A stretch of DNA of 64,000 nucleotides, taken from NCBI RefSeq assembly GCF_026571515.1, contig NW_026858926.1, positions 1-64,000 of the forward strand, given 5' to 3'. Of the stretch, positions 34,901 to 46,900 are shown piece by piece (position 1 is the stretch's first letter; each line of letters opens with the position of its first letter). Source of the stretch: Ruditapes philippinarum (lineage: Eukaryota). Position numbers: made by a program.

Positions 34901-37900
34901 CATCGTCATGTTTAACAAAAAGTGAGAAGCCTTTGGATAAAGGATTGGAGCAGTACCTTTAGACGCCTGCAGAGTCAGGATCACAAAATAGACAAATATC
35001 GTTTTGTTTTTTTCTCGCAGATTCTTGCATCTTGCATTCATTATCAAATATAGATAAATAAGACCTTTAAAAGTTTATTAAGTAGGGTGAAAAGGCGACA
35101 TTTAAGCCTTTAATAATTCAAGCGTCTTTTCCGGTGTGTACTGGATTACGGTATTTAGTGTGGTGCTCCAATCCTTTTTTTAGTCTCACTATTAACCTTT
35201 GCCACCGGCAGTAGAGAGCCAGTCTGGCTCGGCATTATACTATTGACTTCAAATATCTCTTACGGTCTGTTTCAAATAGTTAGGTGGACAAATAATTTCA
35301 GGAAAAACTCAGCAGGTAAGAAATAAATAGCATTTGTCGGCTGTGTATAGCTTTCTTACATTAAAGAATTCAAAGCATGTCTAGATCTGGATGGTACGTT
35401 GCAGGGCCTTTCAGCATATAAGCAACGGGAGAGAGATGTAGGTACAAACAGAATACGGCTGATTTGAAGTCGTATACTGTCTTTGCTAGCACAACACCAT
35501 CACACAGTTAATTCCAATGGATAATTGTACGTGGGTAAAATGATTGGTTATAACTTTTTACACTGCACAGTTTTAAAACATTTAGAGTGATTTATTATCT
35601 GCTTTGCAATAATGTTATCTGTGGCACAAATTTCAAAAGTCTGTGAATCAAACCAACAAAGGTGAGGGACAATTAATTGATTTAAAGCCAGCTACCTAAA
35701 CCGATTGAACACGGAGGGTTTTCAACCACTAGTCTCTCCGACTTTGTGCATATGTAGATCTGACGAGTAATGAACAGGTTGCAAAATCAAATCATAATTT
35801 TCCGTAAAATTCATGAAATTAAAAAAAAAGTCATAAAAATCATTTTTAAAGAATATTGCTTTAATGTGTTTAAGTTTTCTGTCTGTTATTTACGCGACCA
35901 AGCAATAGTGGCAACCCGAATATTTAGATCTGCTTCAATGAAATTAAATTTTGTAGGCCGTTATATTACAACTCCAAGTCACAATATTCTAGCAGCAAGT
36001 CGTCAGACATACAACCAAGCTGAAACTTTAGCCGTCCGGTTAGCTCAACAGGTAGAGTTCGATTCCCAGACGGTGCAGGTCACTTTCGTTGTGATGCCTC
36101 ATGAAATCCTTTCTACGACAATTTGCTCTGTACATTTGCTCTACCATGTACAGAAGTTTCCGTTCCTTGCAAAAGTGAAGGCAACTAGTACTGGTAAACT
36201 GTTTGACAGCTTGCCCACGAACGGTGCCTTGGCTGAACTGAGCTCTGGTAAATTCAATGTGGCTTACTGCCGTAATCCGGAGTGAAAACTTCCAATACCA
36301 CCATCACAACCAAGCAGAGGATTGAATCTCAGACATATACTAGTATTGCATATGACGTTTTTAACCATTTGGCTTTCATTGAGTAAGTTCAGCTACAGTA
36401 TCAGTGTAAATTTGGTTTAGCCAGGTCCAGAATTGAAAAAATACTGACCTTCTACCACTAGGCCACCGCTTTGTTAGTACAAATCAGGAAAATAAAATCC
36501 ATACGTGCCATATTATTATTATCGATATTTATTTTTTAAAAAAAACCCACACATTTCAATGTACATAATTAATATCACACAATATATATTTTGAGTTATG
36601 ATAAAATAAAATATTTTATTACCCTTGCATCAAATTATCCCTTCGTAACTTATTTACAATGTACATCACACATAGCCTACATGTCAATAAGTTTTATATA
36701 CTATAATGTCAATCTCAATATACAGCTATTTTCTTTTTTATTTTAAAATCTTTCTTCATTTTTTTTTCTCTTATTATTATCCTCAATAACACATCGAACA
36801 CCAGTTCACACTTACCAAACACTTTAATTTATAACTGATATGATTGTCTCACACAGATCCGAGTTAAAAATTCAAACAACAAACCAGTCACAGCATTGGA
36901 GCTTTCTCATTGGTCAATTCAAATTCTGAAATACAGACCAGCCAATCATATGCTGAGGAATATGGCCCAGTCTAAAATTATTTATAGAATTTCATCCTAG
37001 TGTAAATTTGTATCATCTGCTTGAAGTAGGAACTGATTGGATCGATGTTTCAAGCCCCGCCCTCACATTAAAAATGTCCTGCCTTCCTGTTGACGCCTCA
37101 GTTTGGATGACATTTGCTTTTTTCCTTGTGTAATGCTTTGACTTTGAGACTTTAGGTAACTCACTAGGGAACAAAGACTCAGGATGGTTGTTCATATGAT
37201 CGTCTGAATCGTAAACATCTGAGAACGTATCCAGCCTGAAAAATTATTTTAACTTGTATACCAGTTGATATGATATATACTGTATTATCATGTTAAATAA
37301 AGATTTTGTTTTTCAATTTAACCAATAGTCCAAAATTTAATGTGCTTTTGACAAGAATAAATTGCATATTTTGCACTTAAAGACTATATTAAGCTATATC
37401 TCATGAAGTATTTTTTTATAAAATTTAGTAATAGAAAGAGCACCGAAACACGAGGCTGTCTGATTTGTACGAGGGGGCATAGCCCCCGAGTATAAATCAA
37501 GATTGCCGAGTGTTTTGGTGTTCTTTCTCTTTTGTATCATAGTCAAACATAAAAACACGTTCTCTGCTGTCACAATATGAAACCCCGGGAAAAAGGAACC
37601 AATGAACGAGCATCTGAATATGATATTTCTGTCGCTTTCCCTTTCTCTTCCATCACAATATGTAAACCCCAACAAAAATGTTAACAAAGTGCGGGTAACT
37701 AATACCTGCACTCCAGTTAACGCACTGTGCATGCATATGTATACGATTTAACTCTGACATATTTTCAACAGAAAGGTCCCCAAACTATGATAAAATAAAT
37801 AGTAAAATAATGTTGTTTCCATAAACTTATGGTCGATTCTTAGAAGATTTGTAATATATACGAAATGTCTCTCTTATTTAACACGCATAAATATTGTATG

Positions 37901-43900: not shown

Positions 43901-46900
43901 AGATATTTATAGCGTCAGTAACGTTTGTGTCTAAAAATAGCAGATTGGGAAATAAATCTTCAACTATACTAATTTGGAGAGCGGACCCAAAGATCCAAGG
44001 TATCGAGGGTTTACCTGATTGTTTATGTATTCTAGTCCAAAGATGTCATTTTCCTTCTTAATTCTTTTGATTTGACAATTATATGAAACGATTTATCTAA
44101 AAAGAACATATTTAACCATTAGAAAAACTGAAGGCCGCTTTAATGATTGATTGGTTAAGTGCCTATAATTATTATCCCTAATGGCACATCTTACATTGGC
44201 AGTACATTATCAAATACTAATGTTTATCTCTGAATATACTAAAGCTGTCACAGAAGTGACCAATACCCCCTTCATTTTTTGACATAGAACTTTATTCAGG
44301 TCCAAATATCATTATTTTTGTTGGTTAAGTTTGGAAAAAAAATCTCCAATGTGCAGGATAGAGCAGACACAGTACAGACAAACTGATTCACGGACAAACT
44401 GACACCACAAAGTGATTCCAATAAAGCCAGCTCCACATTATATGGTGGGGAAGGGTATAATAACATGATTAACACTTTAACATTTTTGTCTTTAACCTGC
44501 AGAATTTGTGTAATGTTTTGCCTTGCTGAGAATTTGGAACAGTCTAATGAAGTTTATGGGTGAAGAAGATAACCACAAATGCCCCCTGATCCTGTTTCTT
44601 GTCAGAAACAAATTATCCAAAACAGGTTTACCCATTCACTCAGTGATGAAAGGAAAGATTGCTAAAAATATTGTTACACAGTACTCTTAGTTACTGTTAA
44701 AAAATGTAAGATAGCATATATTATATCATTCACAAACAAGAGCAACATTGTTGCAAAATACACCATCAGAAAAACTTTTGTCAGAGATGTTGGATTATAG
44801 ATATCCATATAGGAGATATGCCCTGTATCAATAAAATTCCTCAATACATGTAGGAGATATTCTCCGCACAAAATTGTGAACGCCATCCAAAGTGATGAAA
44901 AGGGAAAAGGTACAAATCATCTTTACAGTTTGCCACAGTTTGTCTGTCAATGAAATCACTCTATTTTGTTTAAATTTTGCCGAAATATTTACCATAAATA
45001 TCCATTTCATCATTAAACAACCATAGATCTATTTACAATTATCAATATGCTACCATTTATAGATATACATTATGTTAATATTAATTTTGATAATAGAAAA
45101 TATTGATAATTGCTACACACAGTCTCTTGACATTAAGTAGATATGTTATGTTTAAAATCCTAGATACTATAGATGATCACAATAATGAATATATATTATA
45201 TAGTGCCATTAAAAATACTGACAGTTTTTTTTTTTATAAAGGCCAACTTAACTTAATCTGTAATAGGGAACACAGCTTCCCAAACATAGTTTATTTCATT
45301 CTTTTATTCAAATTAGAAATATTCAGTAAGAATTTCAAAGATTTCAATATATTTCTTTGGTTAAAATATTTTTCTCAAGGATAAGCATAGTATATCTTTA
45401 AATTAACATCTTTAATCTACTAAATGATGAAATATTTGTAAATTGTACTTACCAGAAGTGGATGACACACAGACAATAATAAAACATGGAGACGATGACG
45501 AGAACGACCGTGAGAATCACGTGCATGTACGACACCGCCACCACCTCTTCCTCCTTTAGTTAATATAAAATATCAAAACATTTTTATTGACAGTTCAAAT
45601 ACATTCCCACTACTTTTTTTGGGTAATACTCAATCAAAAACTCACATTTCCACCACTTTTTTTGGGTAATACTCAATCAAAAACTCACATTCCCACTACT
45701 TTTTTGGTAATAACCAATCAAAAACTCACATTCCCACTACTTTTTTTGGTAATAACCAATCAAAAACTCACATTCCCACTACTTTTTTGGTAATAACCAA
45801 TCAAAAACTCACATTCCCACTACTTTTTTGGTAATAACCAAACAAAAACTTACATTCCAACTACTTTTTTGGTAATAACCAATCAAAAACTCACATTCCC
45901 ACTACTTTTTTTGGTAATAACCAATCAAAAACTCACATTCCCACTACTTTTTTTTTGGTAATAACCAATCAAAAACTCACATTCCCACTACTGTTTTGGT
46001 AATAACCAATCAAAAACTCACATTCCCACTACTTTTTTGGTAATAACCAATCAAAAACTCACATTCCCACTACTTTTTTGGTAAATAACCAATCAAAAAC
46101 TCACATTCCCACTACTTTTTTGGTAAATAACCAATCAAAAACTCACATTCCCACTACTGTTTTGGTAATAACCAATCAAAAACTCACATTCCCACTACTT
46201 TTTTTTTGGTAATAACCAATCAAAAACTCACATTCCCACTACTGTTTTGGTAATAACCAATCAAAAACTCACATTCCCACTACTTTTTTTTGGTAAATAA
46301 CCAATCAAAAACTCACATTCCCACTACTGTTTTTGGTAATAACCAATCAAAACTCACATTCCACTACTTTTTTTGGTAATAACCAATCAAAAACTCACAT
46401 TCCCACTACTTTTTTGGTAAATAACCAATCAAAAACTCACATTCCCACTACTGTTTTGGTAATAACCAATCAAAAACTCACATTCCCACTACTTTTTTGG
46501 TAATAACCAATCAAAAACTCACATTCCCACTACTTTTTGGTAAATAACCAATCAAAAACTCACATTCCCACTACTTTTTTGGTAATAACCAATCAAAAAC
46601 TCACATTCTTACTACTTTTTTGGTAAATAACCAATCAAAAACTCACATTCCCACTACTGTTTTGGTAATAACCAATCAAAAACTCACATTCCCACTACTT
46701 TTTTGGTAATAACCAATCAAAAACTCACATTCCCACTACTTTTTTGGTAAATAACCAATCAAAAACTCACATTCCCACTACTGTTTTGGTAATAACCAAT
46801 CAAAAACTCACATTCCTACTACTTTTTTGGTAAATAACCAATCAAAAACTCACATTCCACTACTATTTTTTTTGGTAATAACCAATCAAAAACTCACATT

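What the first reader, a model, noticed from the sequence alone, without database searches (positions are those of the whole stretch)
37013..45553. Duplicated, mutually exclusive TM+tail cassettes may give one membrane protein two interchangeable C-termini
Seen: downstream of exon 52461-52528 (phase 0), the minus-strand gene has two paralogous exon pairs, A (45453-45553 + 43451-43649) and B (38615-38709 + 37013-37235). Each has a phase-0 acceptor, an intact TM helix, a CTTCTG|gtaagt donor, an open tail with a conserved SKxKHYTRKKAxVIQT motif, and its own stop. Intron flanks are also homologous (e.g. 39905-40085 vs 48775-49055). No duplicated upstream exons were found between the cassettes, so B is not a separate gene. 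Inference: one ectodomain can be joined to two diverged TM/cytosolic tails (301 vs 307 aa) through alternative splicing/polyadenylation. Retention of frame despite heavy divergence suggests both are used.
Basis: partly seen in the sequence, partly recalled or inferred. Interest (0 to 1): 0.75.

Follow-up and report, generated by a model that had tools for sequence, protein, structure and literature searches.

The report
Duplicated tail exons in clam gene
A Manila clam membrane-protein gene carries a tandem copy of its last two exons, so its mRNA can end in either of two membrane anchors and tails; this is a well-known kind of arrangement and the public annotation already lists both forms.

Summary
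The window is Ruditapes philippinarum (Manila clam), not human. The minus-strand gene is RefSeq LOC132754696.

The two cassettes are tandem duplicates. The exons are 69-71% identical in DNA, with weak collinear homology in the introns. No copy of the six upstream exons lies between them.

All 11 orthologues from other species carry a B-type end. B is therefore the ancestral tail, and A sits inside the last-but-one intron.

A has evolved far faster: 40 unique residue changes against 2 for B. It has lost the conserved FWLDTF and C-terminal motifs, and a 10-nt tandem duplication cuts it short. I infer a dN/dS of about 1 on its branch.

Even so, A keeps its reading frame, a hydrophobic helix, all four splice sites and an AATAAA. 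That is unlikely under pure drift.

Verdict: alternative terminal cassettes made by tandem exon duplication, a known kind. I saw no RNA reads, so whether A is used or useful stays open.

The parts
59798..59827 (-). Coding exon 1: ATG and the first 10 codons of the signal peptide.
   Evidence: Exact match to residues 1-10 of P0001 and P0002.
57843..57920 (-). Coding exon 2: rest of the signal peptide and start of the ectodomain, residues 11-36.
   Evidence: Exact peptide match; tblastn.
55346..55555 (-). Coding exon 3: residues 37-106, holding the single C2H2-like finger.
   Evidence: Exact peptide match. zf-C2H2 scores only E 0.15, below Pfam's cut-off.
54025..54162 (-). Coding exon 4: residues 107-152, Cys-rich ectodomain.
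   Evidence: Exact peptide match.
53501..53561 (-). Coding exon 5: residues 153 to about 173. The 3' end is set by phase arithmetic and is approximate.
   Evidence: Residues 154-172 match 53558-53502 exactly. The exon end is my inference from the phase of the next exon.
52461..52528 (-). Coding exon 6, the last shared exon. It ends in phase 0 at ATACAG|gtaaga, and this donor feeds either A1 or B1.
45601..47819 (.). 42-nt satellite, 53 copies at 93% identity. It ends 47 nt upstream of the A1 acceptor and is absent from copy B.
   Evidence: Tandem Repeats Finder; self-BLAST.
45453..45553 (-). Cassette A, exon A1: short acidic linker plus TM helix. Acceptor ...aactaaag|G, donor CTTCTG|gtaagt.
   Evidence: Exact match to P0002 residues 196-228. 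Best 19-residue hydropathy 2.71.
43451..43649 (-). Cassette A, exon A2: cytosolic tail of 65 codons plus a TAA stop. It holds an in-frame 18-nt tandem duplication (43493-43528) and the frameshifting 10-nt tandem duplication (43443-43462) that creates the stop.
   Evidence: Exact match to P0002 residues 231-294.
43396..43449 (-). Relic of the ancestral end of tail A, now 3' UTR. It is 17 codons open in the +1 frame, homologous to the last 17 residues of B, and ends at the same TGA.
   Evidence: translation; alignment, 12 of 17 residues identical; TGA at 43396-43398.
43360..43365 (-). The only canonical AATAAA in the 750 nt downstream of A's stop.
38615..38709 (-). Cassette B, exon B1: linker plus TM helix, the ancestral form. 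Acceptor ...aacttcag|G, donor CTTCTG|gtaagt.
   Evidence: Exact match to P0001 residues 196-226. This type is conserved in all orthologues.
37013..37235 (-). Cassette B, exon B2: cytosolic tail of 73 codons plus TGA, the ancestral form.
   Evidence: Exact match to P0001 residues 229-300.
36737..36742 (-). First canonical AATAAA downstream of B's stop. Others lie at 36615-36620 and 36528-36533, and an ATTAAA at 36823-36828.
48764..49051 (.). Weak collinear intron homology of copy A to 39877-40082 of copy B. It marks the upstream reach of the duplicated segment.
39877..40082 (.). Counterpart in copy B of the intron patches at 48764-49051.

Best explanation
The gene encodes a type I membrane protein of an uncharacterised family: signal peptide, Cys-rich ectodomain with one C2H2-like finger, one TM helix and a short cytosolic tail.

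A segment holding its last two exons (TM exon and tail exon), at least about 1.2-1.4 kb of the preceding intron and the 3' end was duplicated in tandem. The downstream copy, B, kept the ancestral sequence. The upstream copy, A, now lies inside the 13.75-kb intron between exon 6 and B1.

Processing of the pre-mRNA can therefore end in two ways.

- Route A: the exon 6 donor (52461) joins A1 (45553), A1 joins A2, and the transcript is cleaved after the AATAAA at 43360-43365. This gives the 294-aa form.
- Route B: A is skipped as intron, exon 6 joins B1 (38709), B1 joins B2, and the transcript is polyadenylated 0.2-0.5 kb past 37013. This gives the 300-aa ancestral form.

These are alternative terminal-exon cassettes born by tandem exon duplication.

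Shown: the duplication, the exon structure, the identity with the two RefSeq isoforms, the ancestral status of B and the extreme rate asymmetry. Inferred: that A is really spliced in vivo, that it was held as a coding, membrane-spanning cassette for most of its history, and that it now evolves under relaxed or changed constraint.
For: - Identity. Exon-by-exon searches and exact peptide mapping show that the window encodes R. philippinarum LOC132754696 isoform X2 (B end) and X3 (A end).
- Duplication. The exons and their immediate flanks are 69-71% identical. Five collinear same-strand patches include intron pieces. The 38 nt before the two TM-exon acceptors are about 88% identical, including a shared TATTAAC branch-point-like motif.
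- No second gene. The upstream exons occur once each. All 11 non-Ruditapes homologues have a B-type TM and juxtamembrane stretch joined to the same ectodomain.
- A maintained as a cassette. All four A splice sites and the GTAAGT donor are intact, and there is one AATAAA 86 nt past the stop. The length differences from B before the 10-nt duplication are multiples of three: 6 nt in exon 1 and 27 nt in exon 2.
- Neutral simulation from B at 0.26 substitutions per site (000 runs per rate). All 104 codons stayed open in 3.7% of runs. They stayed open with a helix at least as hydrophobic as A's in 0.18% of runs.
- The relic 17 codons after A's stop are still open to the ancestral TGA.
- The KHYTRKKAxVIQT stretch is 37 of 39 nt identical. 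Only 269 of 20,000 shuffles of the 315 aligned nt reach that.
- From established knowledge of NCBI's Gnomon pipeline (recalled, not checked here): extra isoforms are built from transcript or RNA-seq alignments, not ab initio.
Against: - I saw no RNA read, EST or long read. The only A-type protein in the 5.8-billion-protein set is the RefSeq model itself (1 hit of 10 candidates).
- A carries nearly all the protein change. Against Mercenaria it has 40 unique differences to B's 2 in 86 columns (Tajima test p 4.5e-9).
- At the 20 columns invariant in the five orthologues, A differs at 9 and B at 1.
- Pairwise dN/dS between A and B is 0.57 (105 codons; bootstrap range of pN/pS 0.46-0.96). If synonymous change is split evenly and 82-95% of replacements lie on A, the A branch has a ratio of about 1.1-1.2. 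That is my inference, and it is what a neutral copy would show.
- A has lost the FWLDTF juxtamembrane motif. It has also lost the GLExxIQ-type C-terminus, through a frameshifting 10-nt duplication.
Confidence: 0.7

Rival explanations
1. Cassette A is a decaying partial duplicate. It sits in the intron as pseudo-exons, and any X3 transcript is splicing noise or a model built on a few reads. Only the B form matters to the animal.
For: - The inferred dN/dS on the A branch is about 1.
- A shows 40 unique changes to B's 2.
- A differs at 9 of the 20 columns invariant in the five orthologues.
- A 10-nt tandem duplication shifts the frame and removes the conserved C-terminus.
- A 2.2-kb satellite has grown 47 nt upstream of the A1 acceptor, and a dispersed repeat sits in the A1-A2 intron.
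- No A-type protein from any other source was found.
Against: - The open frame over 99 codons, plus 17 relic codons open in their own frame, is expected in only 1.4-12% of neutral runs over the rates tried. With the helix as hydrophobic as A's it is expected in at most 0.8%.
- Net length changes are multiples of three.
- All four splice sites, the GTAAGT donor and the 38 nt before the acceptor are kept.
- The basic tail motif is nearly unchanged.
- RefSeq lists X3.
Confidence: 0.3
2. Cassette A is a new, adaptively diverged isoform. After the duplication its TM and juxtamembrane part changed under positive selection, giving the same ectodomain a different membrane partner or sorting signal, while the basic KHYTRKKAxVIQT motif was kept.
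For: - Pairwise pN/pS is highest in the TM exon (0.68) and the juxtamembrane part (0.81). With B nearly unchanged, this implies ratios above 1 on the A branch. The distal tail gives 0.46.
- The helix stays hydrophobic despite 15 changes in 31 aligned codons.
- The basic motif is conserved and partly duplicated in frame.
Against: - No block differs significantly from pN/pS = 1 (Fisher p 0.07-0.57).
- The branch split of synonymous change is assumed, not measured, because no outgroup DNA was at hand.
- The conserved stretch may be a gene-conversion tract rather than a site of selection.
- The recent truncation looks like loss rather than gain.
Confidence: 0.2
3. A1 and B1 are true internal mutually exclusive exons. 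A1 can also be spliced to B2, since both junctions have the same phase and the split codon TG|G reads W. The gene would then make three ends: A+A, A+B and B+B.
For: - The A1 donor and the B2 acceptor are phase-compatible.
- RefSeq numbering implies an isoform X1 that I could not see. The A1+B2 product would be 302 aa by my arithmetic, and it would fall in the 90% cluster of P0001, which has 4 members.
Against:
- A2's acceptor and poly(A) signal lie between A1 and B2 and would have to be skipped.
- I found no docking/selector RNA pairing. For the A and B upstream elements, 51 and 141 of 200 shuffles gave a duplex at least as stable.
Confidence: 0.12
4. Cassette B belongs to a separate downstream gene with its own promoter and first exons.
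For: Nothing positive. There are simply 4.7 kb between A2 and B1 in which an unrelated first exon could hide.
Against: - Every orthologue joins the B-type end to the same ectodomain in one protein.
- RefSeq X2 does the same and maps exactly.
- There is no copy of the upstream exons between the cassettes. The interval holds a 166-nt tandem repeat and no long conserved frame.
Confidence: 0.02

Closest known systems
Tandemly duplicated, mutually exclusive terminal exon clusters: Drosophila pipe (written 'pip' in the paper) and the 3' variable regions of PGRP-LC. Source: passages of PMC9013439.
   Same: Homologous exon groups that include the last exon are arranged in tandem. One group is chosen per transcript, and the choice replaces the C-terminal part of the protein and the 3' UTR.
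   Different: - Here there are only two copies.
- The part replaced is the TM helix plus cytosolic tail of a type I protein, not a catalytic or ligand-binding domain.
- One copy is evolving about as fast as neutral DNA and is truncated.
- The competing RNA structures reported for PGRP-LC were not found here.
Drosophila Dscam1 exon 17, two mutually exclusive variants that correspond to the transmembrane domain. Source: passages of PMC1397879.
   Same: A duplicated exon gives one ectodomain two alternative TM segments.
   Different: - Dscam exon 17 variants are internal exons that share all downstream exons, and they are conserved among insects.
- Here the TM exon travels with its own tail exon, stop and poly(A) signal, and the second copy was seen in one species only.
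Tandem duplicated exon substitution events in general. Sources: abstracts in the search listing for PMC9741552 and PMC8373072.
   Same: The isoforms are identical except for a homologous region that derives from tandem exon duplication.
   Different: Those abstracts describe mostly ancient, highly expressed events. This one looks young or lineage-restricted, and one member is under weak constraint.
Partial tandem gene duplicates that decay as intronic pseudo-exons (general knowledge, recalled).
   Same: Only part of the gene is copied. The copy has a high replacement rate, a frameshifting indel, and satellite and repeat insertions.
   Different: The frame, the TM character, the splice sites and a poly(A) signal are retained, and an annotated isoform uses the copy.

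Membership tests
Alternative terminal-exon cassettes made by tandem exon duplication | Two or more homologous exon groups in tandem within one gene, on the same strand. | tested here: met
   A1/B1 are 71% and A2/B2 69% identical in DNA. Intron patches are collinear. Both cassettes lie downstream of the single set of upstream exons.
Alternative terminal-exon cassettes made by tandem exon duplication | Each group can be joined in frame to the shared upstream exon and has its own stop and poly(A) signal. | tested here: met
   Both acceptors are phase 0 after a phase-0 donor. Stops are TAA at 43451-43453 and TGA at 37013-37015. AATAAA lies at 43360-43365 and 36737-36742.
Alternative terminal-exon cassettes made by tandem exon duplication | Mature transcripts contain one group or the other. 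| not testable with these tools
   The only support is that RefSeq isoforms X2 and X3 each hold one cassette. No read data were available.
Alternative terminal-exon cassettes made by tandem exon duplication | Both groups are kept by selection (functional isoforms). | tested here: inconclusive
   B is strongly constrained, with 2 unique changes. A has an inferred dN/dS of about 1 and a truncated tail. Against that, its frame, helix and splice sites are kept beyond the neutral expectation.
Classical internal mutually exclusive exons (Dscam exon 17 type) | The alternative exons share the same downstream exon. | tested here: not met
   In the two isoforms seen, each TM exon is followed by its own tail exon. 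A1->B2 is phase-compatible, but this is only my inference.
Classical internal mutually exclusive exons (Dscam exon 17 type) | Competing docking and selector RNA pairings in the introns. | tested here: not met
   Duplexes between the 600 nt after the exon 6 donor and the conserved elements before A1 and B1 are no better than shuffles (51 and 141 of 200 as good). Only this one docking region was tried.
Unused pseudo-exons from a partial duplication | In-frame stops or frameshifts relative to the parent copy. | tested here: inconclusive
   There is one frameshifting 10-nt duplication near the end. It shortens the tail by 17 codons but still leaves a complete 294-aa frame. There are no other stops or shifts.
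Unused pseudo-exons from a partial duplication | Loss of splice signals. | tested here: not met
   AG acceptors and GT donors are intact at all four A junctions. A1 uses AAG, but so does the constitutive exon 6.
C2H2 zinc-finger proteins (Pfam PF00096) | A score above Pfam's gathering cut-off. | tested here: not met
   On exon 3 alone, E is 0.15 at 13 bits against a cut-off of 25.2. The whole proteins gave no PF00096 row at all. PDB zinc fingers match only at E 0.13-0.87. The CxxC...HxxxxH pattern is present and invariant in the first seven homologues aligned.

The most novel reading that the evidence does not exclude
The locus may show the birth of an alternative C-terminus at an early stage. 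On this reading, a duplication restricted to the Ruditapes lineage gave a conserved ectodomain a second membrane anchor and tail. That second end has since been remodelled under positive or shifted selection: a new juxtamembrane sequence, a duplicated basic motif and a shortened end. It may be combined with the old tail through A1->B2 splicing, so that the clam makes two or three receptor-like forms that differ only in how they sit in the membrane and signal inside the cell.
Probability: 0.2. Interest if true: 0.45.

Novelty: new member of a known kind. Interest (0 to 1): 0.25.

Why it matters
If A is truly used, this is a clean and fairly young example of how tandem duplication of terminal exons creates a new protein end. 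It has an ancestral copy beside it for comparison, and it lies in a conserved but entirely uncharacterised family of membrane proteins with a C2H2-like finger. It could serve as a small case study of how selection treats the new copy: kept frame and helix, free residues. It does not open a new mechanism, and the two products are already in the public annotation.

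Tried and rejected
- Listing the 90% clusters of the two RefSeq isoforms to see isoform X1 and the accession numbers.
- Searching with the A2 exon for A-type tails among proteins of 122-2000 aa. Only the RefSeq X3 model came back (1 of 10 candidates). Shorter proteins were not searched. 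The R. philippinarum B form also has no transcript-assembly source in that set, so the absence says little about expression.
- Naming the family. Pfam, NCBIfam and PDB sequence searches gave nothing above cut-off. The Atlas gave only 'hypothetical' and 'C2H2-type domain-containing protein' clusters.
- Looking for docking/selector RNA pairing for exclusive splicing. It was no better than shuffles.
- Dating the duplication with a peptide tree.
  - A is sister to Ruditapes B (support 83/79) with the shared-exon columns removed.
  - That grouping depends on the 13-codon KHYT...VIQT stretch. Without it, A moves to Mya on a very long branch, and the AU test does not reject A+B (p 0.159).
  - All five positions where A equals B but not Mercenaria lie in that stretch.
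  - The age is therefore unresolved, and gene conversion cannot be told from constraint.
- Testing whether the satellite grew out of intron sequence shared with copy B. There is only an 18-nt match, and 11 of 500 shuffles score as high. It is a lead only.
- Treating the AAG acceptor of A1 as evidence of weak use. I dropped this because the constitutive exon 6 also uses AAG.
- The collections of bacterial genomes, phages, plasmids and E. coli cannot hold a clam locus and were not used.
- One paper look-up failed on a term format and was not repeated.

Full report
**What the window is.**
- Its G+C content is 28-35% and it contains many tandem and dispersed repeats.
- I searched the translated exon at 55316-55561 (minus strand) on its own among longer proteins. 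It gave 7 hits among 15 candidates.
- The best two hits, at 99% identity, are 'uncharacterized protein LOC132754696' isoforms X2 (300 aa) and X3 (294 aa) of Ruditapes philippinarum, the Manila clam.
- Every piece of both proteins maps exactly onto the minus strand of the window.
- The window is therefore clam DNA, not human. One run of N was left as it is.

**How spliced models were handled.** My own searches were exon by exon. Where a whole protein was needed I used the RefSeq proteins returned, by their ids. Substitution rates were computed exon by exon with the split codon left out.

**The observation.**
- The gene has six shared coding exons: 59827-59798, 57920-57843, 55555-55346, 54162-54025, about 53561-53501, and 52528-52461.
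- It then has either A1+A2 (45553-45453, 43649-43451) or B1+B2 (38709-38615, 37235-37013).
- Introns are 6,907 nt from exon 6 to A1 and 13,751 nt from exon 6 to B1.
- The RefSeq lengths are 294 and 300 aa.

**The cassettes are tandem duplicates.**
- Self-BLAST aligns each exon with its partner and with some flanking intron: 71.3% over 164 nt and 69.1% over 204 nt.
- A more permissive comparison gives a collinear, same-strand chain.
  - 43393-43734 ~ 37010-37310.
  - 45010-45058 ~ 38526-38574 (84%).
  - 45428-45591 ~ 38590-38746.
  - 48764-48837 ~ 39877-39967.
  - 49008-49051 ~ 40039-40082.
- The intron patches are weak, but each is the other's best match in the window.
- Once the 2.2-kb satellite in copy A is subtracted, their distance from the TM exon agrees to within about 200 nt. 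That is my arithmetic.
- tblastn with the full proteins finds no second copy of any upstream exon.

**Which copy is ancestral.**
- together returned 14 proteins: the two Ruditapes isoforms, 11 other homologues with a comparable end, and one longer insect protein.
- The homologues are from Mercenaria, Mactra, Mya, Dreissena, Haliotis and six unnamed assembly-derived sequences.
- All have a B-type TM and juxtamembrane region. In the bivalves this reads ...YYCVA(V/I)NYFW(L/F)DTF(S/A)D..., and most also have a DIFNV..GLE..(I/L)Q-type end.
- The Mercenaria model has an unrelated-looking N-terminal half, but its last ~150 residues are clearly B-type.
- B is therefore the orthologous, ancestral end, and its joining to exon 6 across cassette A is not in doubt.

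**How A has changed.**
- With Mercenaria as outgroup, A has 40 unique residues and B has 2 in 86 comparable columns (Tajima test p 4.5e-9). Three other outgroups give the same direction.
- At the 20 columns invariant in the five orthologues, A differs at 9 and B at 1.
- A reads FCIGMG where all others read FW(L/F)DTF.
- A contains an in-frame 18-nt tandem duplication, with copies 16 of 18 identical.
- A also contains a 10-nt tandem duplication (AATGTGAAAT/AATGTGAAAG) that creates its TAA.
- Directly after that stop, the +1 frame still reads 17 codons homologous to the end of B and closes at the same TGA. The truncation is therefore recent relative to the rest of the divergence.

**Selection.**
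- Pairwise Nei-Gojobori counts over 105 aligned codons give dN 0.30, dS 0.53 and a ratio of 0.57. The bootstrap range of pN/pS is 0.46-0.96, and 1.35% of 2,000 resamples reach 1.
- By block, pN/pS is 0.68 for the TM exon, 0.81 for the juxtamembrane part and 0.46 for the distal tail. None differs significantly from 1.
- Almost all replacements lie on A. If synonymous change is shared equally, the A-branch ratio is about 1.1-1.2 and the B-branch ratio about 0.1. This is inference, because no outgroup DNA was available.
- Against plain drift, I ran neutral simulations starting from B, with 20,000 runs per rate.
  - At 0.26 substitutions per site, all 104 codons stayed open in 3.7% of runs.
  - They stayed open with a helix at least as hydrophobic as A's (2.71 against 2.62 for B) in 0.18% of runs.
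- The length differences before the 10-nt event are multiples of three.
- All four A splice sites and the GTAAGT donor are intact.
- The 38 nt before the two TM-exon acceptors are about 88% identical, more than the exons themselves.
- A single AATAAA lies 86 nt past A's stop.
- The KHYTRKKAxVIQT stretch is 37 of 39 nt identical, and 269 of 20,000 shuffles reach that.
- My reading is that A was kept as a spliced, membrane-spanning coding cassette while most of its residues were free to change. Its recent truncation may be either tolerated or the start of decay. The ascertainment caveat applies, since the copy was noticed because it is open.

**Age of the duplication.**
- A tree of the cassette peptides, with the shared-exon columns removed, puts A beside Ruditapes B (support 83/79). 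The A branch is 1.57 changes per column and the B branch is essentially zero.
- All five positions where A and B agree against Mercenaria lie in the 13-codon conserved stretch.
- Without that stretch, A moves to Mya on a very long branch, and the AU test does not reject A+B (p 0.159).
- Two readings therefore remain open: a duplication in the Ruditapes lineage, or an older duplication with a short gene-conversion tract.
- The residual intron homology and a dS of about 0.5 favour a fairly young event. That is inference.

**Mechanism.**
- The choice is between two routes.
  - Splicing exon 6 to A1 and ending the transcript at A's poly(A) site.
  - Reading through A as intron and splicing exon 6 to B1.
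- I found no docking/selector RNA pairing of the kind used by some exclusive-exon clusters. Only one candidate docking region was tested.
- A1->B2 splicing is phase-compatible and would give a third form.

**What is known.**
- Tandem exon duplication as a source of mutually exclusive exons is well described (abstracts in the listing).
- Passages of PMC1397879 state that Dscam exon 17 has two variants and corresponds to the transmembrane domain.
- This locus belongs to that kind.
- A search for papers combining alternative last exons, transmembrane, duplication and cytoplasmic tail found one unrelated paper. I did no search for papers on this gene itself.
- The protein family has no Pfam, NCBIfam or solved-structure match above threshold. 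The Atlas lists it only under automatic names such as 'C2H2-type domain-containing protein'.

**Verdict.** It is unproven for use, and doubtful for equivalence of the two ends. This is an ordinary kind of feature and a modestly interesting instance.

Noticed in passing
window 45601-47819: A 42-nt satellite with 53 copies at 93% identity and strong C-over-G skew on the + strand. It ends 47 nt upstream of the A1 acceptor and is absent from copy B. An 18-nt match to the intron upstream of B1 hints that it grew in place, but 11 of 500 shuffles score as high.
   Followed up: partly
window 41810-42436: A 166-nt tandem repeat of 3.8 copies at 82% identity, in the 4.7 kb between cassette A and cassette B.
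   Followed up: no
window 29856-31033 (+ strand): Open stretches that look like exons of an M12B metalloprotease gene on the other strand. Reprolysin scores E 0.012 and ADAMTS cysteine-rich domain 2 scores E 5.3e-5, both below Pfam's cut-offs.
   Followed up: partly
window 32701-33090 and 33420-33719 (+ strand): Two paralogous open stretches. Each has a 24-27-nt tandem repeat coding a T/N/D/G-rich run, followed by a six-cysteine module. Neither has a Pfam match at E up to 1.
   Followed up: partly
window 48383-48622 and 52146-52391: A 240-nt element present twice in the exon 6-A1 intron. It matches in both orientations (87% and 80%), so it is internally palindromic and MITE-like.
   Followed up: no
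window 34316-34689, 43779-44143, 48159-48263: A dispersed repeat at 71-80% identity. One copy lies inside the A1-A2 intron, which helps explain why that intron is longer than the B1-B2 intron.
   Followed up: no
window 20461-20805 and 37427-37792: An inverted pair of a 0.35-kb repeat at 78% identity. One copy lies inside the B1-B2 intron.
   Followed up: no
window 6792-7516, 7640-8363, 9144-9894: Three copies of a 0.73-kb element at about 94% identity, in direct and inverted orientation. They are probably a young transposable element.
   Followed up: no
protein P0011 (Mercenaria mercenaria LOC123536150): The N-terminal half of this RefSeq model (G/W/E-rich) does not resemble the family, while its last ~150 residues are a good B-type orthologue. 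The model is probably wrong at its 5' end.
   Followed up: no
window, first quarter: One run of 169 N. It was left alone.
   Followed up: no
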